A stretch of DNA of 43,247 bases from the IMG/VR virus record IMGVR_UViG_2540341091_000003, positions 1 to 43,247 of that record. The stretch is one strand, 5' to 3'. The position numbers and the translations under genes were made by a program. Below the pieces are notes generated by a model. That model did no database searches, was not told the DNA's origin, and saw only the letters and a list, made by a program, of their open reading frames with translations. This stretch comes from a virus (taxonomy: Duplodnaviria; Heunggongvirae; Uroviricota; Caudoviricetes). Below are positions 6,751 through 43,247 of the stretch, piece after piece (the stretch's first letter is position 1; each line of letters begins with the position of its first letter).

Positions 6751-7377
6751 TTAGAGTTCGTATTGAACTCCTTTGACTACACCAATGATAAGGCAATTAC
6801 CATTGATAGGGATGTTGGGATACCGAGGATTTAAAGGCACTAAAAACTTTTGAGGGCCATCGATGACTAATTTTTTTACTGTAGCTTCGTTTGTTCCATC
6901 AAGTCGAGCGATGACTATTTTTCCATGACGAGGTTCTGCATCTGGATCTACAATCACTGTTGCGCCTTCTGGTATTGTTGGGAGGCCATTAGGGTTAGTC
7001 ATGGAGTCACCTTTAACCTCTAATGCAAATGAGTTATCACCAATCTTTAATGATGTATCTACCCACTTGTCCACTTCACTAAACACTTCTGCTGCCCTGC
7101 ACTCAGTAAACTGCCCAGCCTGAACCCACGATATTACAGGAACTCTGCGCATGTTTGTGACGAGTTTGCCTTCAAACTCAGCACCATAAAGAATGTAATC
7201 TATTGACGTATTGAAGAACTTCGCTAATTTCGAAAGTGCCTCCCCACCAGGGGTATTGATGTCTTTCTCCCAGTACCCCACAGCAACGTCGCTTACTCCA
7301 CAAAATTTACCCAATTCTTTCTGGGACGTTCCGGTAACTCTTCTCAGAGCTTTTATACGCTGACCAACCGTTTCCAT
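6751..7377 (-). CDS. CI-like repressor (HTH + S24 LexA-type autopeptidase domain)
   Basis: N-terminal HTH (QKELGKFCGVSDVAVGYWEKDINTPG), C-terminal ...ALEVKGDSMTNPNG... Ser-protease motif and downstream Lys; divergent from cro. Confidence 0.9.
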   Translation of the reverse strand: METVGQRIKALRRVTGTSQKELGKFCGVSDVAVGYWEKDINTPGGEALSKLAKFFNTSIDYILYGAEFEGKLVTNMRRVPVISWVQAGQFTECRAAEVFSEVDKWVDTSLKIGDNSFALEVKGDSMTNPNGLPTIPEGATVIVDPDAEPRHGKIVIARLDGTNEATVKKLVIDGPQKFLVPLNPRYPNIPINGNCLIIGVVKGVQYEL

Positions 7378-7394
7378 AGGAGCACCATTTCTTG

Positions 7395-7470
7395 AATTGC
7401 TAAGTAATCTTAGTTTTTATTGACCAAAGATAGATTTGTAATTAGCATCTAATAAAACTTAGTTTGGAGG
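7395..7470. promoter_or_regulatory. Right operator/promoter region (OR, pRM/pR) between cI and cro
   Basis: Palindromes CTAAGTAATCTTAG (7400-7413), ATTAGCATCTAAT (7441-7453) and AAACTTAGTTT (7455-7465) in the 97-bp divergent intergenic region; TTGACC at 7420-7425. Confidence 0.6.
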
Positions 7471-7474
7471 GCGT

Positions 7475-7675
7475 ATGACAACTGACGATATCGAAAGCTA
7501 CTTCGGCAGTATTGAGAAAGTTGCTGCTTTTTTCGGCATAACAACTGAAGCCGTTTATCAGTGGCGAAACCGTCCGGGCCAGTTAATTCCAAAAGGACGT
7601 GCAGCAGAAGCTGCATATAGAACTTGCGGACGGTTGCCATTTAAACCTGAGCTTTATGAAAAATCTAATGGATAA
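7475..7675 (+). CDS. Cro-like HTH regulator
   Basis: 66-aa ORF divergent from cI; ...FGITTEAVYQWRNRPGQLIP... HTH. Confidence 0.8.
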   Translation: MTTDDIESYFGSIEKVAAFFGITTEAVYQWRNRPGQLIPKGRAAEAAYRTCGRLPFKPELYEKSNG

Positions 7676-8264
7676 ATCGATTAACAGAAACCACAGAACG
7701 ATGAGGCTAACCGTGGGTAAGCATCACTGGAAAGTAGAAAAACAGCCTGAGTGGTACGTGAAAGCTGTCAGAAAAACTATCGCAGCGTTGCCGGGTGGTT
7801 ACGCTGAAGCAGCTGACTGGCTGGATGTAACAGAAAACGCATTATTTAACCGCCTTCGTGCCGATGGCGATCAGATTTTCCCGCTGGGATGGGCAATGAT
7901 TTTGCAACGTGCTGGTGGAACTCACTTCATTGCTGACGCTGTGGCGCAGTCTGCAAATGGCGTCTTTGTGTCTCTTCCTGACGTCGAGGATGTGGACAAC
8001 GCCGATATTAACCAGCGCCTGCTGGAAGTCATTGAACAGATTGGCAGTTATTCCAGACAGATTCGTTCGGCAATCGAAGACGGTGTGGTGGAACCGCATG
8101 AGAAGACAGCAATTAACGACGAGCTGTATCTCTCAATTTCGAAGCTGCAGGAGCATGCAGCACTGGTCTACAAAATCTTTTGCATTTCAGAAAGTAATGA
8201 CGCCCGCGAGTGTGCAGCTCCGGGCGCCGTGGCGTGTCGTGACTGTGGAGAAACTAACGCATGA
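7656..8264 (+). CDS. CII-like / early regulatory protein (start uncertain: 7656 or 7668)
   Basis: ORF directly after cro in the cII position; overlaps the cro stop; no motif assigned with certainty. Confidence 0.5.
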
Positions 8265-36033: not shown

Positions 36034-36795
36034 ATGCATCGTATAGACACGAAAACCGCGCAGAAGGATAAGTTCGGCGCGGGTAAGAACGGTTTTACCC
36101 GTGGTAACCCCCAGACTGGCACGCCTGCCACCGATCTGGATGATGACTACTTTGATATGTTGCAGGAAGAACTCTGCAGCGTGGTGGAGGCATCCGGTGC
36201 CAGCCTGGAGAAGGCGCGGCACGACCAGTTGCTTACCGCGCTTCGTGCGCTGCTGTTAAGCCGCAAGAATCCGTTTGGCGATATCAAATCGGATGGCACG
36301 GTGAAAACAGCTCTCGAAAACCTTGGTTTGGGAGAAGGCTCTGCATTACCGGTTGGTGTGCCTGTTCCGTGGCCTTCAGCCACTCCGCCAACGGGGTGGC
36401 TAAAATGTAACGGAGCAGTATTTTCTTCTGAAAAGTACCCAAATCTGGCAAAGGCTTACCCAACATTAAAATTACCAGATTTACGCGGGGAATTTATTCG
36501 TGGCTGGGATGATGGGCGCGGGATTGACTCTGGTCGTAACTTATTATCTGCACAGAATGATGCAATTCAGAATATTGTTGGTTCTTTTGGGCGTACCCAG
36601 CTTTTTAGAGACGTACTTAGTTCAGGGCCATTTAGTCAACATGGGAAAGTATTATCTACAGGTCTAAAGGAAGCCGAAATTATTGATGGTTATGGCGCTT
36701 ATAACTGGACATTCGACGCATCTCGCTCAGTTCGCACAGCATCTGAAACCCGCTCCCGTAACATCGCCTTTAATTATATTGTGAGGGCTGCATGA
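36034..36795 (+). CDS. Tail fibre protein: constant N-terminus (to ~36322) fused to a variable C-terminal cassette inside the invertible segment
   Basis: The gene crosses the left recombination site (36311-36336); the C-terminal 155 aa are duplicated, inverted, at 37961..38433. Confidence 0.8.
36311..36336. promoter_or_regulatory. Left crossover site of the invertible segment (gix/hix/pix-like 26-bp site)
   Basis: CTCTCGAAAACCTTGGTTTGGGAGAA; the inner half-site TTCTCCCAAACC (read on the minus strand) is shared with the right site, centre dinucleotide TT versus AA. Confidence 0.65.
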
Positions 36796-37279
36796 TAAGT
36801 AAAGCTGTATTAAATAATGAACTCATCGCCACAAAGGCCGGAGACATTACCGTTTATAATTATGATGGTGAAACACGGGAATATATTTCCACATCAACTG
36901 AATATCTTGCTGTGGGTGTCGGTATCCCGGCATATTCCTGTTTAGATGCCCCAGGCGCATACAAAGCTGGTTATGCAATCTGCCGATCTGCAGATTTTAA
37001 CTCATGGGAATATGTGCCAGACCATCGCGGTGAAATCGTCTTTAGCACCGAAACAGGAGAATCAAAAGAAATCACAGTTCCGGGTGATTACCCTGATAAT
37101 ACAACCACTATCGCCCCGTTAACGCCATACGATAAATGGGATGGTGAGAAATGGGTGACGGATACCGAGGCACAGCATAGCGCCGCAGTAGACGCGGCAG
37201 AAGCACAACGTCAGTCACTGATTGATACTGCAATGGCTTCCATTAGTCTGATTCAACTGAAATTGCAGGCCGGACGGAA
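36323..37279 (+). repeat. Left arm of a 957-bp perfect inverted repeat
   Basis: Every region I spot-checked by reverse-complementing 37477..38433 (both ends and two internal stretches) is identical to the corresponding part of 36323..37279. Confidence 0.85.
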
Positions 37280-37476: not shown

Positions 37477-37964
37477 TTCCGTCCGGCCTGCAATTTCAGT
37501 TGAATCAGACTAATGGAAGCCATTGCAGTATCAATCAGTGACTGACGTTGTGCTTCTGCCGCGTCTACTGCGGCGCTATGCTGTGCCTCGGTATCCGTCA
37601 CCCATTTCTCACCATCCCATTTATCGTATGGCGTTAACGGGGCGATAGTGGTTGTATTATCAGGGTAATCACCCGGAACTGTGATTTCTTTTGATTCTCC
37701 TGTTTCGGTGCTAAAGACGATTTCACCGCGATGGTCTGGCACATATTCCCATGAGTTAAAATCTGCAGATCGGCAGATTGCATAACCAGCTTTGTATGCG
37801 CCTGGGGCATCTAAACAGGAATATGCCGGGATACCGACACCCACAGCAAGATATTCAGTTGATGTGGAAATATATTCCCGTGTTTCACCATCATAATTAT
37901 AAACGGTAATGTCTCCGGCCTTTGTGGCGATGAGTTCATTATTTAATACAGCTTTACTTATCAT
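37477..37964 (-). pseudogene. Inverted second copy of the tfa 5' region (163 codons), which then reads antisense into the 3' end of the plus-strand tfa
   Basis: The track ORF 37215..37964 is identical to Tfa for 163 aa and then becomes W/C-rich nonsense that is the reverse complement of the genuine Tfa C-terminus. Confidence 0.6.
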
Positions 37965-38433
37965 GCAGCCCTCACAATATAATTAAAGGCGATGTTACGG
38001 GAGCGGGTTTCAGATGCTGTGCGAACTGAGCGAGATGCGTCGAATGTCCAGTTATAAGCGCCATAACCATCAATAATTTCGGCTTCCTTTAGACCTGTAG
38101 ATAATACTTTCCCATGTTGACTAAATGGCCCTGAACTAAGTACGTCTCTAAAAAGCTGGGTACGCCCAAAAGAACCAACAATATTCTGAATTGCATCATT
38201 CTGTGCAGATAATAAGTTACGACCAGAGTCAATCCCGCGCCCATCATCCCAGCCACGAATAAATTCCCCGCGTAAATCTGGTAATTTTAATGTTGGGTAA
38301 GCCTTTGCCAGATTTGGGTACTTTTCAGAAGAAAATACTGCTCCGTTACATTTTAGCCACCCCGTTGGCGGAGTGGCTGAAGGCCACGGAACAGGCACAC
38401 CAACCGGTAATGCAGAGCCTTCTCCCAAACCAA
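37961..38433 (-). other. Silent inverted tail-fibre C-terminal cassette (identical to the expressed one)
   Basis: 155 codons identical to the C-terminus of the 36034..36795 fibre; no independent start; the upstream part of the track ORF crosses the crossover site. Confidence 0.7.
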
Positions 38434-38445
38434 CGTTTATGAAAA
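38420..38445. promoter_or_regulatory. Right crossover site of the invertible segment
   Basis: TTCTCCCAAACCAACGTTTATGAAAA, ~55 bp upstream of the invertase start. Confidence 0.65.
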
Positions 38446-38499
38446 TGCAGAAATAACGAGCAAATGGCATCATTCCTGCTTTTGTCAGGGGGATCTACC

Positions 38500-39054
38500 A
38501 TGCTTATTGGCTATGTACGCGTATCAACAAATGACCAGAACACAGATCTACAACGTAATGCGCTGAACTGTGCAGGATGCGAGCTGATTTTTGAAGACAA
38601 GGTAAGCGGTACAAAGTCCGAAAGGCCGGGACTGAAAAAACTGCTCAGGACATTATCGGCAGGTGACACTCTGGTTGTCTGGAAGCTGGATCGGCTGGGA
38701 CGTAGTATGCGGCATCTGGTCATTCTGGTTGAGGAGTTGCGCGAACGTGGCGTTAATTTTCGCAGCCTGACGGATGCTATTGATACCAGCACACCGATGG
38801 GGCGTTTTTTCTTTCATGTGATGGGTGCCCTGGCTGAAATGGAACGAGAACTGATTGTTGAACGAACAAAAGCTGGACTGGAAGCTGCTCGCGCACAGGG
38901 ACGAATTGGTGGACGTCGTCCCAAACTTACACCAGAACAATGGGCGCAGGCCGGGCGATTAATTGCATCAGGCGTTCCTCGCCAGAAGGTGGCTATTATC
39001 TATGATGTTGGTGTGTCAACTTTGTATAAGAGGTTTCCAGCCAGGGTTATATAA
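38500..39054 (+). CDS. Serine DNA invertase (Pin/Gin/Hin family)
   Basis: MLIGYVRVSTNDQNTDLQRNAL... with catalytic Ser in VRVST, plus a C-terminal HTH; adjacent to the invertible tail-fibre segment. Confidence 0.92.
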   Translation: MLIGYVRVSTNDQNTDLQRNALNCAGCELIFEDKVSGTKSERPGLKKLLRTLSAGDTLVVWKLDRLGRSMRHLVILVEELRERGVNFRSLTDAIDTSTPMGRFFFHVMGALAEMERELIVERTKAGLEAARAQGRIGGRRPKLTPEQWAQAGRLIASGVPRQKVAIIYDVGVSTLYKRFPARVI

Positions 39055-39396
39055 AACCGCAGACATGTCGTATGCAGGAGGTGTCGCGGTTGGCTGGTGA
39101 ACTTTTGATAGTGCGAGTATTGAATGATTTCCAGCCGTTACTGATTTTACGCATTTTTGTATGAGAGGGTTTGCACCTCCTTCCACCGATTCTCCATGAC
39201 TTTACGCCACTGTCTCTAGAACTGCTATGTGCCAACAGCAGACATTCATAGCACACAGTTTTGTTAACAACTAGAAATAAGTTTAGGAATAGTCGCGATA
39301 TATCTATTAAAGATACAATCATTCAAATAAATGAGACATTTTCGGCATGCTGGGAAAAGTAATTAAAAATGGTGAAAGCCAATTGTTTTTTATTAA

Positions 39397-39903
39397 TCAA
39401 CTTTTAAACCATAAGTCATCTCGATAGAGTAGACTAATTTTCGTTGCATCTTTTGATGCTAGAGTCGTACACTCTCCTTTATCAAACTCATCTAGACTCA
39501 CAAATGTAAATTCGTCACCATTTTTTTCTTTCGGAAACACCATAAAGACTACTTCGAAAGTACAATCACTATACACATTTTTTAAGAATTGCTGAAGTGC
39601 TCTATACTTTCCTATTTCACAATCAGTAAGTGTAAAGGAGGTACACCCATCTGTTGAGTGATACTTCGCATCTAAAAGAATATAAGAGGATTCGTCAGCG
39701 TCAATAATGAAATCGGGGCGTTTCCCCCCATATGATTTCAAGTTTGCAGATAAGGTATTTATTCCTTGCTCAACATGTTCAAATTTCCACTTGGATTTTT
39801 CCAGCCATCTACTAGCATATTTCTCACCATCTTGACCAGCCGTTATAGAGTATTGTTTTCTTAATGCGCTGCACATTTCGTCTAAATTTAACATAAATTC
39901 CAT
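39397..39903 (-). CDS. Small AT-rich protein with a PD-(D/E)xK-like nuclease motif (start 39903 or 39894)
   Basis: ...GGKRPDFIIDADESSYILLDAKYH... fits the D...(D/E)xK pattern of restriction-endonuclease-fold nucleases; AAGGA RBS; low GC. Confidence 0.55.
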   Translation of the reverse strand: MEFMLNLDEMCSALRKQYSITAGQDGEKYASRWLEKSKWKFEHVEQGINTLSANLKSYGGKRPDFIIDADESSYILLDAKYHSTDGCTSFTLTDCEIGKYRALQQFLKNVYSDCTFEVVFMVFPKEKNGDEFTFVSLDEFDKGECTTLASKDATKISLLYRDDLWFKS

Positions 39904-40149
39904 GTTCCTTTTTTTTAGTATAATTATTAACATCGGCAGTATTTAATAATTCTTTAAAAATAAATTTTCAGGCTCATACCAATTATATCTTCAAGCATTA
40001 TTATCAAGCATATTCGAGACCTCTGCAATTCGCTCACAGCGGATCTCGCCTAGCGAGCAGGTCTGCTCAGTGCCATAATTAGTCTCATCAGCAGACTATA
40101 GTTGTGCTCAATCGGAGACATGTGGCAAACATGAGGAACATTATGTCCG

Positions 40150-40386
40150 TCAAAGAGTTTTCGTAGCTTAGGCATTTCGATGCTGGCAACGGGTCAGTGT
40201 AACGCTTACTATATCGGTCCACTTTAGTCTTAAGGGTTCAATATGGCGTTGCACCTATTGTCCGCTGACCAAGAATCTTCGGGTGATTCAACTTCTGTTG
40301 GGTCATAAGAAACTGGAAAGCACATTCCGTTATCTGGGCATTGAAGTCGATGATGCGTTAGAGATCTCTGAATCGATTGAAGTCTA
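40150..40386 (+). pseudogene. Remnant of a tyrosine recombinase gene (C-terminal catalytic region only, with frame disruptions)
   Basis: The frame ending at TAA 40384-40386 reads ...LTKNLRVIQLLLGHKKLESTFRYLGIEVDDALEISESIEV, i.e. the LGH...RY region carrying the catalytic Tyr; the upstream reading frame is broken. Confidence 0.5.
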
Positions 40387-40493
40387 AGGTTGTCAGGGCT
40401 GCAACAGCAGCCCTGTGCCAGGAGCAGACGTTAACGACCAAGCATTGGCGGCAATTGAGCTCAGCGCAATTGCCGTTCAAGTGCAACTCCGTT

Positions 40494-43247
40494 CTATTTG
40501 ATTGCTGCATTGATTCGTTTATATCTTTGGGTAAAGGCCTCTTTGCCACCTTCCATCACTCGGCATATCTCATCGCGTATGGAAGGTTCTTGAAGACCCC
40601 CTTGCGCCACAATTCTGGTTTGACCAGACCGAATATCAAGGGCAATGACGTTTTCCGCGTCACCATTCACGACGATGTTAGCGTTGTGCGTGACTACTAA
40701 AACCTGCCGTTTTTGTTTGATCTCACGCAATTGCGTCACGATAAGATCATAGATTAAGTGGTTATCAAGATCATCCTCAGGCTGATCAAGTATAAGAGGC
40801 TCATTGCCATATGAAAGGATAAATGCAAGGAGAGCCGCCGTTTTTTGCCCCGGAGATCCTTGCTCTACGGGTTTGAAACTCTCGCCGTTCTTGAGGCTAT
40901 ATCTGATATCCAGAGAATCGCCTGGAAACCAGCACTGAATTCGATCTATCTGTTCCGGAGTTAGCCCCTGAATGAGGGATACAAAACGTCGATCTTTGCA
41001 GGATTCCACCGCCATAGTATCGTTTTCATGGATTGCAAGTAGCGATGATTTTATTTTCTCAATTTTATCATCCATAGTATTGGATTGGTCTTGCGTTAAA
41101 TAAGCCAGCAAGCCCTCATCCCCGTCAACAACTCCAATGTCGCGGTCAAATCCGCCACCACTGCGGCCGATCAGGTTACGGAATTCTTCCTCAACCGTAA
41201 TCTTGTTTCCAAACGGAATGACATTGATCTGTACATATGAATTGCCGACGAGAGTATCCTTGAGAAAGTCCTCACGAAGTTTGGTTATCAATGCTCGATG
41301 CTCATGGAGTTTGACCAAGTATTCTTCCGCGCTCTTCTGATGCTGCGCAAGAGTTTCTCTCTTTTTGTCGAATCCCTTGAGCTTATCTTCGAAATCTTGT
41401 CGCTGCTTAACCAGAACACCATATGCAGATGGATCACCTGCGTCTGCTGCGCTGAGTTGACCGAGGAGGGCGTTGTATTCATGGCTCGCCGCTGTAATTC
41501 TTTTCGATATTCCCAAGTCTGATCGAGTTTGATTCCATGAGTTCTTCACATCATCAATCCGCTGCGCGATCGAGTTCATCTCTGTCTGAAGCTTCTCAAA
41601 CGTCGCACGGATGTCCTTGATGGTATCGAAGAGTTCTTTGTCATCCGCATTCCCAATGTCGAAATATTGTAAATCCAATTCTGCTGGCAGTAGGCTTCCA
41701 GAAATATCTCGGACCTGTTCGGCGGAATCCTCCCAAGTCGTTACCCAGGAGTCCATAGCCTTACTCTGGTTCTGTCTGAGTTGGTAAGCCTTAAGGACAT
41801 CCGCGTGGCCCGCCTTTTCAAAAACATCGAGTTTGCGTTTGACGTCTTCAAGCTGACCTTTGGTTACCGATTCTTCCTGAAGCCCAGCCTGAACTTCACG
41901 CTCTTGGGCGCGAAGCGAGAGATATTTGGAAACCAGTTCATCCCACTTAAGCTGCCAATCACGATGATTGACCTCCGGGGCATCATCGACAACCTGCAAG
42001 AGTGCTTGGGGATGCTTTGCCAATTCGAATATCTGTTTCTGGCTGTAAATCCTGACAGGAAATCGTTGTGCTATGTCTCCCTCGGAATCACACCAGACTC
42101 CGGGAGCGGTCTCTTCCTCGATGCTGTATATGTCGTCGGTATTAGACCAGGTGATTCGGAAACGGCCACCGTCTTTTCGAAAGCCTACAGTTATTTTCGT
42201 GGAATCTTTTAACAGCCCTTCATCTTGGCGGTCTTTCGAAGTTTGACTGTATTTGGTAAATTCCTTTTCAAGGCTCTTGGGGATTTCTCCCTTTCGTTTA
42301 AGAGCAATCCGCAGGAATTCCAACGAAGTCGATTTCCCAGTGCCTCGTCCACCAATGATAGTGTTGAGCCAGGGGTTCAGTTGACAAGTTAAAGATTGCC
42401 CTCGTCCTAAGTACTTCGCATCATCAACCACGATACTTTCGATGGCAAGTTGTCCATGGATATTTGGGTCACCAGTGAAGTTGTCCGACCGCTTCAGTGA
42501 AAGAGCACCATCAACGAGCGCCAGCCGTAATCCGTCATAAGATGGCTCCGACATTTTTACCCAAGTGAAATGGCTACCCGGGTAGCGTTGATTTCCGGTA
42601 CCGGACGGATGATGGGAATCGGTTCCAAGAATCTCTGCCCAATTCAAATTCTTGCCAATATAGAGCTGCGGTTTTGCTTTAGCAAGGTCCGTTACCTCCA
42701 TAGCAAAAACACATTTGTTGTCAAGCACCTGCTCTAGTGTGTTGCCCGTACAGACCGTAAAAAGTCCGCTAGCCTGATCTACATGAGCAGGTATTGCAAG
42801 TCCTCCTGACCTAGCAATTTCGTCGATCACCTCAACTGCTGAGCATTCAGAGCAGCCGTCGCTCTTTCCTTTGGTGCCGCGATACCTGACCGCACCAAGC
42901 AGTGAGTCGATATCAGAGGTTGTCTTGTCTTCGCCGAAAATGGCCAGAATATGGATATTCCCCTGAACAGTAAGCTCAACACCTGGGAATAAGTAGAGTG
43001 GTCGATAATCTTCATGACTCTCAGATGCCAGTTCCTTGAGTGCCTGCTTGAGCGGATCAATCCAAGCGCCTGAATTATGGTCCGTGACAGCGACACAATC
43101 GATGCCTTGTCGCATGTAGTTGAGCAGCCAATCTTTATGAGTGATCTGCATATACTGGGCCTGATTAGGGCCTTTTCCATAATCGTCCGATGCCGGAGTG
43201 TGATTATGGAAGTCGAATTTCCACCACCGAGAACCAATCCAGTTCAT
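40494..43247 (-). CDS. PHP-domain phosphoesterase fused to an SMC/RecN-like ABC ATPase (917 aa); architecture resembles Ppl-type single-gene antiphage proteins
   Basis: N-terminal PHP motifs (WWKFDFHNHTPAS; VAVTDHN; GVELTV...IHILAIF; AIPAHVD; LGTDSHHP), Walker A GGRGTGKST (~aa 299-307), long coiled-coil-like insert, signature-like QGSPGQKTAALLAFIL, Walker B LILDQPEDDLD and VVTHN H-loop. The window ends exactly at its start codon. Confidence 0.8.
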   Translation of the reverse strand: MNWIGSRWWKFDFHNHTPASDDYGKGPNQAQYMQITHKDWLLNYMRQGIDCVAVTDHNSGAWIDPLKQALKELASESHEDYRPLYLFPGVELTVQGNIHILAIFGEDKTTSDIDSLLGAVRYRGTKGKSDGCSECSAVEVIDEIARSGGLAIPAHVDQASGLFTVCTGNTLEQVLDNKCVFAMEVTDLAKAKPQLYIGKNLNWAEILGTDSHHPSGTGNQRYPGSHFTWVKMSEPSYDGLRLALVDGALSLKRSDNFTGDPNIHGQLAIESIVVDDAKYLGRGQSLTCQLNPWLNTIIGGRGTGKSTSLEFLRIALKRKGEIPKSLEKEFTKYSQTSKDRQDEGLLKDSTKITVGFRKDGGRFRITWSNTDDIYSIEEETAPGVWCDSEGDIAQRFPVRIYSQKQIFELAKHPQALLQVVDDAPEVNHRDWQLKWDELVSKYLSLRAQEREVQAGLQEESVTKGQLEDVKRKLDVFEKAGHADVLKAYQLRQNQSKAMDSWVTTWEDSAEQVRDISGSLLPAELDLQYFDIGNADDKELFDTIKDIRATFEKLQTEMNSIAQRIDDVKNSWNQTRSDLGISKRITAASHEYNALLGQLSAADAGDPSAYGVLVKQRQDFEDKLKGFDKKRETLAQHQKSAEEYLVKLHEHRALITKLREDFLKDTLVGNSYVQINVIPFGNKITVEEEFRNLIGRSGGGFDRDIGVVDGDEGLLAYLTQDQSNTMDDKIEKIKSSLLAIHENDTMAVESCKDRRFVSLIQGLTPEQIDRIQCWFPGDSLDIRYSLKNGESFKPVEQGSPGQKTAALLAFILSYGNEPLILDQPEDDLDNHLIYDLIVTQLREIKQKRQVLVVTHNANIVVNGDAENVIALDIRSGQTRIVAQGGLQEPSIRDEICRVMEGGKEAFTQRYKRINAAIK

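What the first reader, a model, noticed from the sequence alone, without database searches (positions are those of the whole stretch)
39397..39933. Small AT-rich PD-(D/E)xK-like protein beside the PHP-ATPase gene
Seen in sequence: a ~170-aa ORF with RPDFIIDADESSYILLDAKYH, fitting the D...(D/E)xK nuclease core, strongly AT-rich, on the same strand as the 917-aa gene and ~560 bp downstream of it. Inference: either an independent minimal nuclease (restriction-like or abortive-infection effector) or an accessory partner of the PHP-ATPase; Ppl is described as single-gene, so a conserved partner would be new. The motif call is by eye and could be coincidental.
Basis: inference. Interest (0 to 1): 0.6.

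Follow-up and report, generated by a model that had tools for sequence, protein, structure and literature searches.

The report
Stand-alone small nuclease gene cassette
The small AT-rich gene encodes a real but uncharacterised 165-residue nuclease-fold protein that travels as its own one-gene cassette through prophage defence hotspots, and it is not a partner of the neighbouring Ppl-like gene.

Summary

It is not a Ppl partner. Homologues sit in about 17 different contexts and only this E. coli prophage lineage has the PHP-ATPase beside it. Of 457 plasmid records with a full-length Ppl/TrlF-like gene, one carries the small gene, and that one is this same element. The gene and its flanks (about 39238-40043) move as a unit, separately from the Ppl cassette (from 40414).

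Its neighbours elsewhere are often defence genes: a Septu-like pair, a retron I-C, and type III R-M. The slot after pinE holds McrA or PD-T4-3 in other strains. My best reading is a stand-alone candidate anti-phage endonuclease, but the function is inferred.

Side observation: both cassettes are bracketed by 24-bp palindromes (GTCYGCT-N10-AGCRGAC) that delimit low-GC cargo in hundreds of viral contigs.

The parts
39397..39894 (-). Coding sequence of the 165-aa Hjc-like PD-(D/E)xK protein (RefSeq WP_015364431.1). The catalytic candidates are E24, D61, D75 and K77.
39895..39933 (-). N-terminal extension of the longest ORF (MLIIILKKRNMEF). It is probably untranslated 5' leader and contains the AAGGAA ribosome-binding site at 39905-39910.
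   Evidence: The upstream ATGs are not conserved in the other cassettes, while the AAGGA box is.
39982..39987 (-). Conserved TATAAT-like box about 88 nt upstream of the start codon. It is a candidate -10 element of the gene's own promoter (inferred).
   Evidence: ATATAAT/ATATATT/ATATACT is kept in all six aligned cassettes. The generic promoter scan did not call it because no good -35 is present.
39220..39243 (.). Type A 24-bp palindromic site (AACTGCT-ATGTGCCAAC-AGCAGAC, left arm degenerate). This is the 3' boundary of the small-gene cassette.
   Evidence: Backbone homology with strain GF3-3 ends at 39243 and cassette homology with the Rahnella locus starts at 39238. Motif scans.
40021..40044 (.). 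Type B 24-bp palindromic site (CTCTGCA-ATTCGCTCAC-AGCGGAT). This is the 5' boundary of the small-gene cassette.
   Evidence: Cassette homology with the Rahnella and Citrobacter loci ends at 40020 and 40043. The same motif lies at about -150 in the other cassettes. The coordinates are read.
40061..40096 (.). Degenerate type A-like site (GTCTGCT-CAGTGCCATA...AGCAGAC). With the preceding type B site it forms the B-A tandem junction typical of these arrays.
   Evidence: Sequence; 11-nt repeat; B-A tandems are the rule in IMG/VR loci, 25 of 28.
40268..40387 (+). Remnant (3' end) of a gene for a 200-aa tyrosine recombinase. It is followed by a 9-bp-stem hairpin (40394-40415) and a type A half-site (40414-40429).
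   Evidence: The stretch is 94-97% identical to the ends of 'site-specific integrase' genes in about 870 E. coli genomes. The full-length gene carries a Phage_integrase domain. Sequences.
40494..43247 (-). Neighbouring 917-aa PHP + ABC-type ATPase protein (Ppl homologue, TrlF family) on its own cassette, which begins at 40414.
   Evidence: PADLOC Ppl E 2e-157; NCBIfam TrlF 651 bits; 98% identical cassette on plasmid L002 without the small gene.
38464..39054 (+). pinE, a small serine DNA invertase. It is the last backbone gene of the prophage before the cargo region.
   Evidence: RefSeq annotation. The slot downstream of pinE is variable in other strains.

Best explanation
The gene encodes a compact (165 aa), probably dimeric, metal-dependent DNA endonuclease with an Hjc-like PD-(D/E)xK core and a short C-terminal beta-strand extension. 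It is a self-contained one-gene cassette of about 0.8 kb, with its own leader and a promoter-like box. It sits in the cargo region between the pin invertase and attR of an e14/lambdoid-type prophage integrated at thrW. It functions independently of the adjacent Ppl-like gene.

Its most likely role is a prophage-carried, stand-alone anti-phage nuclease that cuts incoming or replicating phage DNA. The fold suggests branched or otherwise phage-specific DNA structures, or modified DNA, as the substrate, with the host chromosome spared.

What is shown: the gene is real, it has the fold with conserved catalytic residues, it is independent of Ppl, and it lives in defence hotspots. What is inferred: nuclease activity, dimer state, substrate and the defence phenotype.
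For: - **Real gene.** dN/dS is 0.15-0.30. 225 cluster representatives match, nearly all 160-200 aa and single-domain.
- **Independence from Ppl.** The cassette 39238-40043 is about 80% identical, flanks included, in a Rahnella P2-like prophage and in Citrobacter, while the Ppl cassette starts at 40414. Homologues occupy about 17 distinct contexts with no shared neighbour. 457 plasmid records hold a full-length Ppl/TrlF-like gene and only one holds the small gene. Ppl is described as a single-gene system (PMC12904381; PMC11482910).
- **Defence context.** Immediate neighbours elsewhere are a PDC-M01/PtuAB-like pair (E 3e-210), a type III REase plus PDC-S06, a retron I-C RT-Toprim (E 7e-221), and a type III REase plus a NucS-like protein. 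The same pinE-downstream slot carries mcrA in K-12 e14, PD-T4-3, an FRG/PDC-S15 protein, or a NucC-like nuclease in other strains. Small serine recombinases have been published as markers of adjacent defence genes (PMC13552941).
- **Not the phage's own resolvase.** The prophage already encodes RusA in its nin region.
Against: - No phenotype or biochemistry exists for any family member.
- There is no match to any PADLOC v2 model, and no literature was found under the accessions.
- A 165-aa protein has little room for a sensor or a modified-base reader, so how it would discriminate self from non-self is unexplained.
- No immunity gene or methyltransferase travels with it.
- Several contexts have no recognisable defence neighbour (Citrobacter, Enterobacter, Pseudoalteromonas, L054). 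Four lie next to SOS-type cargo (umuDC, SRAP, dinI), which may point elsewhere.
- tblastn found no copy in 50,697 GenBank phage records.
- The family is rare: 15 of 5,426 complete E. coli genomes.
Confidence: 0.5

Rival explanations
1. The small nuclease is an accessory partner of the Ppl-like PHP-ATPase, for example by making nicks whose 3'-OH ends the exonuclease then uses, so the two form a two-gene system.
For: The genes are adjacent and on the same strand in this lineage. All 12 E. coli chromosomes carrying this Ppl allele in the prophage also carry the small gene. A review states that E. coli Ppl is a 3'-5' exonuclease activated by 3'-OH ends made by endonucleases (PMC12904381). In two other contexts the family also sits beside an ABC-type ATPase defence gene, PDC-M01A and PDC-S06.
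Against: The 12 genomes are 99-100% identical across the region, so they count as one lineage. The same Ppl allele (98%) occurs on plasmids without the small gene. Of 457 plasmid records with a full-length homologue, 456 lack it. About 16 of 17 family contexts lack Ppl. The 560-bp gap contains cassette boundaries and a recombinase-gene remnant, not an operon junction. In the other two ATPase contexts the genes are convergent.
Confidence: 0.04
2. It is a selfish element: either a free-standing homing-type endonuclease or an addiction nuclease. Its activity promotes the spread or retention of its own cassette rather than host defence.
Against: Closely related copies (80-92% identity) lie at many unrelated sites, whereas homing predicts one cognate site. 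The same palindromic boundary sites flank hundreds of unrelated cargo genes, so mobility does not need this protein. No antitoxin-like neighbour is conserved.
Confidence: 0.15
3. It is a DNA-repair or recombination accessory: a junction- or fork-cleaving resolvase-like enzyme carried as a fitness moron alongside SOS-type cargo.
For: The best structural matches are the Holliday-junction resolvases Hjc and RecU. Four contexts place it within one to three genes of umuDC, SRAP or dinI.
Against: The prophage already has RusA in the expected module. The gene lies in cargo slots rather than replication or recombination modules. It has no profile match to the Hjc family. umuDC/SRAP/dinI are themselves common edge cargo of prophages, so the co-location may be passive.
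Confidence: 0.12
4. It is an inactive or non-nuclease member of the fold, for example a DNA-binding regulator or an anti-defence protein.
For: The PD-(D/E)xK fold has been recruited for non-catalytic roles. No activity data exist for this family.
Against: All four canonical catalytic residues, plus the K58-R59 pair next to D61, are invariant across the family, and the gene is under purifying selection.
Confidence: 0.05

Closest known systems
Archaeal Holliday-junction resolvase Hjc (PDB 2wcw, 1gef, 1ob8)
   Different: Sequence identity is only 9-14% and there is no Hjc Pfam or PDB sequence hit. This protein has an extra insert at residues 41-57 and a C-terminal beta extension of about 40 residues. 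It is bacterial and prophage-borne, and it sits in cargo slots rather than recombination modules.
Restriction-type PD-(D/E)xK cores (McrC, HsdR N-terminal domain, RmuC)
   Same: There are weak sequence matches centred on the RPDF...LDAKY core: RmuC E 0.01, McrC E 0.54, and HsdR_N E 2e-4 for a distant family member.
   Different: All matches are below family thresholds. There is no GTPase, helicase or methylase partner, and the protein is single-domain.
Single-gene nuclease defences that occupy the same prophage slot (McrA of e14, PD-T4-3 GIY-YIG)
   Same: They occupy the same position downstream of pinE at the prophage end, and they are single-gene nucleases.
   Different: They have unrelated folds (HNH, GIY-YIG). 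Their phenotypes are established, whereas this gene's is not.
Ppl (Gao et al. 2020 system; PADLOC ppl)
   Same: It is the physical neighbour here, and both are nucleases found in defence islands.
   Different: Ppl is a single-gene system. There is no conserved linkage with this family.
Integron cassettes and pdif modules (for the cassette architecture only)
   Same: Short imperfect palindromes of fixed polarity bracket one- or two-gene, low-GC cargo units arranged in arrays. The cargo is often defence genes.
   Different: The site sequence (GTCYGCT-N10-AGCRGAC, with centres TGTGCCA or TCGCTCA) is unlike attC or dif. The sites lie in temperate-phage hotspots and on plasmids. No cognate recombinase has been identified and recombination has not been demonstrated.

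Membership tests
PD-(D/E)xK nuclease superfamily | Core alpha-beta-beta-beta-alpha-beta fold | tested here: met
PD-(D/E)xK nuclease superfamily | Conserved acidic and lysine catalytic residues (E ... PD ... (D/E)xK) at canonical positions | tested here: met
   E24, P60-D61, D75 and K77 are invariant in 26 sequences. They lie in helix 1, at the start of strand 2 and in strand 3.
PD-(D/E)xK nuclease superfamily | Metal-dependent phosphodiester cleavage | not testable with these tools
   Requires biochemistry.
Hjc resolvase family (Pfam PF01870) | Match to the family sequence profile | tested here: not met
   No Hjc hit at E<=1 in Pfam. A profile search against PDB sequences found only a marginal McrC match.
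Hjc resolvase family (Pfam PF01870) | Role and location as the element's junction resolvase | tested here: not met
   The prophage encodes RusA in its nin region. The gene lies in cargo slots in all contexts.
Hjc resolvase family (Pfam PF01870) | Homodimer that cleaves four-way junctions | not testable with these tools
   No multimer prediction or assay was available.
Ppl/TrlF defence system (as a second component) | Conserved co-occurrence with the PHP-ATPase gene | tested here: not met
   One of about 17 family contexts has the PHP-ATPase. Of 457 plasmid records with a full-length Ppl/TrlF-like gene, one has the small gene.
Ppl/TrlF defence system (as a second component) | Shared transcription unit or shared mobile unit | tested here: not met
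   The homology blocks are separate, 39238-40043 and 40414-43247. A recombinase-gene remnant and hairpin lie between them.
Type II restriction-modification endonuclease | Adjacent cognate methyltransferase | tested here: not met
   There is none next to the gene here, and none is conserved across contexts. The prophage's two methyltransferases are 16-23 kb away.
Known or candidate defence systems in PADLOC v2.0 | Profile match to a catalogued defence protein | tested here: not met
   0 families at E<=1.
Defence-island gene (guilt by association) | Recurrent placement next to known defence genes in unrelated contexts | tested here: met
   Neighbours are Ppl-like, PDC-M01/PtuAB-like, type III R-M plus PDC-S06, retron I-C, and type III R-M plus NucS-like. 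The slot is shared with McrA and PD-T4-3. No formal enrichment statistic was computed.
Free-standing homing endonuclease | Closely related copies occupy one cognate target site | tested here: not met
   Copies at 80-92% identity lie in different loci: after pinE, between gpV and gpS, next to SRAP, and after a retron.
Toxin-antitoxin toxin | Conserved adjacent antitoxin gene | tested here: not met
   No neighbour cluster is shared across contexts. A cis-antisense RNA was not excluded.

The most novel reading that the evidence does not exclude
The small nuclease is a new single-gene anti-phage system. In addition, it and the Ppl-like gene are cassettes of a cassette-exchange platform that, as far as I could check, has not been described. 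In this platform 24-bp palindromes of two classes (A: GTCYGCT..TGTGCCA..AGCRGAC; B: ..TCGCTCA..), arranged with fixed A...B polarity, would be recombination sites that shuffle defence genes between the hotspots of unrelated temperate phages (the P2 tail-fibre-assembly/tail-sheath slot, the lambdoid P/nin slot, the e14 pin/attR slot) and plasmids. That would answer the open question of how these hotspots turn over so fast.
Probability: 0.2. Interest if true: 0.75.

Novelty: new member of a known kind. Interest (0 to 1): 0.45.

Why it matters
If it protects against phage, this would be one of the smallest stand-alone nuclease defences. It would then raise the question of how a 165-aa enzyme with no sensor domain tells phage DNA from host DNA. 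The family currently has no Pfam, NCBIfam or PADLOC model, so defence-annotation pipelines that rely on those libraries will miss it.

The negative result also matters. The Ppl-like gene here does not need a partner, which is consistent with published single-gene Ppl data.

The palindromic cassette boundaries seen in passing could explain how defence genes are exchanged at prophage hotspots, a mechanism that Rousset et al. describe as unresolved.

Tried and rejected
- tblastn of the protein against 50,697 GenBank phage records found no match.
- Rfam found nothing at E<=1 across 38400-43247. Neither of the two cassette 3' flanks searched (L032, L013) gave a tRNA or other credible Rfam hit.
- The generic promoter/terminator scan gave no more hits than shuffled sequence.
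- The afdb50 fold library was unavailable.
- The context of the Vibrio homologue P0026 was not on record.
- The 918-aa gene near the Acinetobacter homologue looked like a second Ppl by length. It is a type III restriction enzyme.
- The flanking DNA is conserved at about the same level as third codon positions, so I did not pursue an antisense RNA or extra-element claim.
- The 11-nt triple repeat CAWCAGCAGMC is largely accounted for: two copies overlap the right arm of a palindromic site (39220-39243 and 40061-40096), and the third lies in the terminator hairpin of the recombinase-gene remnant.
- The thrW attR repeat is not in the window. It lies about 385 bp beyond the Ppl-like start codon, so both genes are inside the att-bounded element.
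- Literature searches on TrlF and on the protein accessions returned nothing useful.
- Nilsson et al. 2004, a possible precedent for the repeats, could not be read.

Full report
**Observation**

The longest ORF at 39397..39933 (- strand, 178 aa) contains RPDFIIDADESSYILLDAKYH. The region is AT-rich, with GC 0.33-0.36 against 0.44-0.50 in the 917-aa gene and 0.53-0.62 in the phage structural genes. It lies 560 bp downstream of, and on the same strand as, the 917-aa gene at 40494..43247. Six diverged copies of the gene with their flanks share only the ATG at 39894 (MLNLDEM), preceded by AAGGAA; the two upstream ATGs are not conserved. Homologues are almost all 164-168 aa, and RefSeq annotates 165 aa as WP_015364431.1. 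Pairwise dN/dS is 0.15-0.30, so this is a real gene under purifying selection.

**What the protein is**

- Family libraries: Pfam gives only a sub-threshold RmuC match (E 0.01). PADLOC and NCBIfam give nothing. PHROGs gives phrog_28481, of unknown function.
- Family size: a word-indexed search found 31 clusters, all in Gammaproteobacteria. An exhaustive profile search found 225 cluster representatives (85 at E<=1e-10), nearly all 160-200 aa and single-domain. Sampled distant members carry no Pfam domain apart from weak RmuC and HsdR_N matches.
- Conserved residues: in the 26-sequence alignment G23, E24, G56, G57, K58, R59, P60, D61, D75, K77, E93 and Y97 are invariant.
- Structure: the AlphaFold2 model is confident (pLDDT 89.5, pTM 0.84) and has the helix-strand-strand-strand-helix-strand order. 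E24 is in helix 1, D61 at the start of strand 2, and D75/K77 in strand 3. Residues 41-57 form an insert and the last ~40 residues form a beta-strand extension.

Sequence-profile membership in Hjc itself is not met.

**Setting**

The window is an e14/lambdoid-type prophage with an HK97-type head and a contractile tail. It is integrated at tRNA-Thr (thrW) between proA and the pao operon. The attR copy of the tRNA 3' end lies about 385 bp beyond the Ppl-like start codon, so both genes are inside the element. The gene order at the right end is:

1. the invertible tail-fibre segment
2. pinE
3. the small gene
4. a remnant of a gene for a 200-aa tyrosine recombinase (40268-40387)
5. the Ppl-like gene
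6. attR

 The prophage has its own RusA resolvase and two methyltransferases in the usual lambdoid positions.

**Is it a Ppl partner? No.**

- The full 38400-43247 arrangement is in 12 of 5,426 complete E. coli genomes at 99.5-100% identity, which is one lineage.
- The same Ppl allele (98%) sits on plasmids without the small gene, next to a recombinase and an R-M system.
- Of 457 plasmid records with a full-length Ppl/TrlF-like gene, only one has the small gene. That record is a 41.5-kb copy of this same element.
- In the other direction, homologues occupy about 17 distinct contexts and only this one has Ppl.
- blastn shows two separate mobile blocks. Window 39238-40020/40043 is about 80% identical, flanks included, to a Rahnella P2-like prophage (between gpV and gpS) and to a Citrobacter locus. 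The Ppl block starts at 40414.
- Published work treats Ppl as a single-gene system (PMC11482910; PMC12904381).
- The 917-aa protein is a Ppl homologue (PADLOC E 2e-157). By NCBIfam it is a TrlF-family member (651 bits, cut-off 350) rather than the Ppl equivalog (631 bits, cut-off 1000), and it is about 30% identical to plasmid ppl genes.

**What it probably does**

The family repeatedly sits beside defence genes:

| Context | Neighbouring genes |
|---|---|
| e14-like prophage at icd, between intE and icd | PDC-M01/PtuAB-like ATPase + HNH pair (E 3e-210 and 2e-107) |
| Acinetobacter (L023) | type III R-M and PDC-S06 |
| L042/L043 | retron I-C RT-Toprim (E 7e-221) |
| L051 | type III REase plus a NucS-like protein |
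| L028/L034 | DUF3800 gene immediately downstream in two flanking contexts |

The slot after pinE holds different cargo in other strains:

| Strain | Cargo after pinE |
|---|---|
| K-12 e14 | mcrA |
| CT02 | PD-T4-3 |
| WP4-S18-ESBL-09 | FRG/PDC-S15 protein |
| HZ13 | NucC-like nuclease |
| GF3-3 | DUF4365 protein |

A 2026 paper reports that small serine recombinases such as Gin/Pin are markers of adjacent defence genes (PMC13552941). On this basis I favour a stand-alone anti-phage endonuclease, with confidence about 0.5.

Several points count against that reading:
- There are no functional data for any member.
- The protein has no evident sensor.
- No immunity partner travels with it.
- Several contexts have no defence neighbour.
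- Four contexts sit next to umuDC, SRAP or dinI.

The rivals are a selfish or homing-type nuclease (0.15), a repair or junction-processing accessory (0.12), an inactive fold member (0.05) and a Ppl partner (0.04).

**Noticed in passing: palindromic cassette boundaries**

Both cassettes are bracketed by 24-bp imperfect palindromes, GTCYGCT-N10-AGCRGAC, with two centre classes: A (TGTGCCA) and B (TCGCTCA). In the window:

- type A at 39220-39243
- type B at 40021-40044
- a degenerate A-like site at 40061-40096
- an A half-site at 40414-40429
- a type B site about 90 nt beyond the window end, upstream of the Ppl-like gene

The same sites flank Ppl on the plasmid, the DUF4365 and DUF6602 cargo in other strains, and cassettes in a Rac/Qin-type prophage.

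By my own estimate from the pattern degeneracy, under one match is expected by chance. Across 199 loci there are 377 sites, and the arm positions are 90-98% conserved apart from the two degenerate Y/R positions. The 138 inter-site segments mostly hold one gene (75) or two genes (33). They have 39.6% GC against 47.7% in the flanks and carry 164 distinct protein clusters. Of 107 single-orientation segments, 89 are bounded by one A and one B, and 25 of 28 closely spaced site pairs are B followed by A in the same polarity.

Backbone genes next to the sites are tail-fibre assembly and tail sheath (the P2 Z/fun slot), lambda P, DUF977 and DUF968 (the lambdoid nin region), and YdaT. Cargo includes ThsB, PD-T7-1, PD-T7-5, PD-T4-2_A, NsnA, LmuA and several PDC candidates.

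This looks like a site-specific cassette system, but no recombinase has been assigned and no recombination has been shown. From memory, Nilsson et al. 2004 (PMID 12949155) may have described such repeats for P2; I could not read the paper. Rousset et al. state that the exchange mechanism at these hotspots is unresolved.

**Verdict**

The gene is a new, uncatalogued member of a known kind: a small PD-(D/E)xK nuclease in defence islands. It is independent of Ppl, and its defence role is plausible but unproven.

Noticed in passing
window 39220-39243, 40021-40044, 40061-40096, 40414-40429; L001 10938-10962; L002 3992-4017 and 6924-6949; IMG/VR loci L058-L253: 24-bp palindromes GTCYGCT-N10-AGCRGAC come in two centre classes, A (TGTGCCA) and B (TCGCTCA). 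They bracket one- or two-gene, low-GC cargo units with fixed A...B polarity. They occur in hotspots of P2-like, lambdoid and e14-like prophages and on plasmids. Type A is in at least 120 viral contigs and type B in 83. The cargo is very diverse and includes known defence genes. This may be a site-specific cassette-exchange system. No recombinase has been assigned, and prior description (Nilsson et al. 2004) could not be checked.
   Followed up: partly
window 40268-40387 (+), hairpin 40394-40415: Remnant of the 3' end of a gene for a 200-aa tyrosine recombinase (catalytic domain only). Intact copies, in about 870 E. coli genomes, sit among variable cargo genes in Rac/Qin-like prophages. This is a candidate recombinase for the palindromic sites.
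   Followed up: partly
window 36318-37279 and 37477-38438: A 962-nt, 100% identical inverted repeat with a 197-nt spacer lies in the Pin-invertible tail-fibre segment, so both orientations encode the same fibre tip and assembly protein. A close RefSeq relative (L001) has two different alternatives here. This could be gene conversion or an assembly artefact.
   Followed up: no
L020 (E. coli EC06) 7001-8135; E. coli X14-3 (hits H40, H43): Two of the three complete E. coli genomes carrying the icd-context allele of the small gene have it interrupted by IS1 at different positions. This is a possible sign of a fitness cost, but the sample is very small.
   Followed up: no
L013, L017, L030, L032 (homologue contexts): In four unrelated contexts the homologue lies within one to three genes of umuDC, an SRAP (YedK-like) gene or dinI. 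In L013 and L032 a tRNA-3'-end-like sequence (GGAGGTTCAAATCCTCTCGT.CCGACCA) follows the cassette although no full tRNA gene is present, which suggests a position at the very edge of an integrated element.
   Followed up: partly
L028 8001-9912 and L034 7001-8913: Nearly identical copies (dS 0.02) of the small gene plus a downstream DUF3800 gene occur in two different flanking contexts. In this lineage the mobile unit is therefore a two-gene pair.
   Followed up: no
window 40494-43247: The PHP-ATPase is a TrlF-family protein below NCBI's Ppl equivalog cut-off and only about 30% identical to plasmid-borne ppl genes. Published Ppl phenotypes may not transfer directly to this allele.
   Followed up: partly
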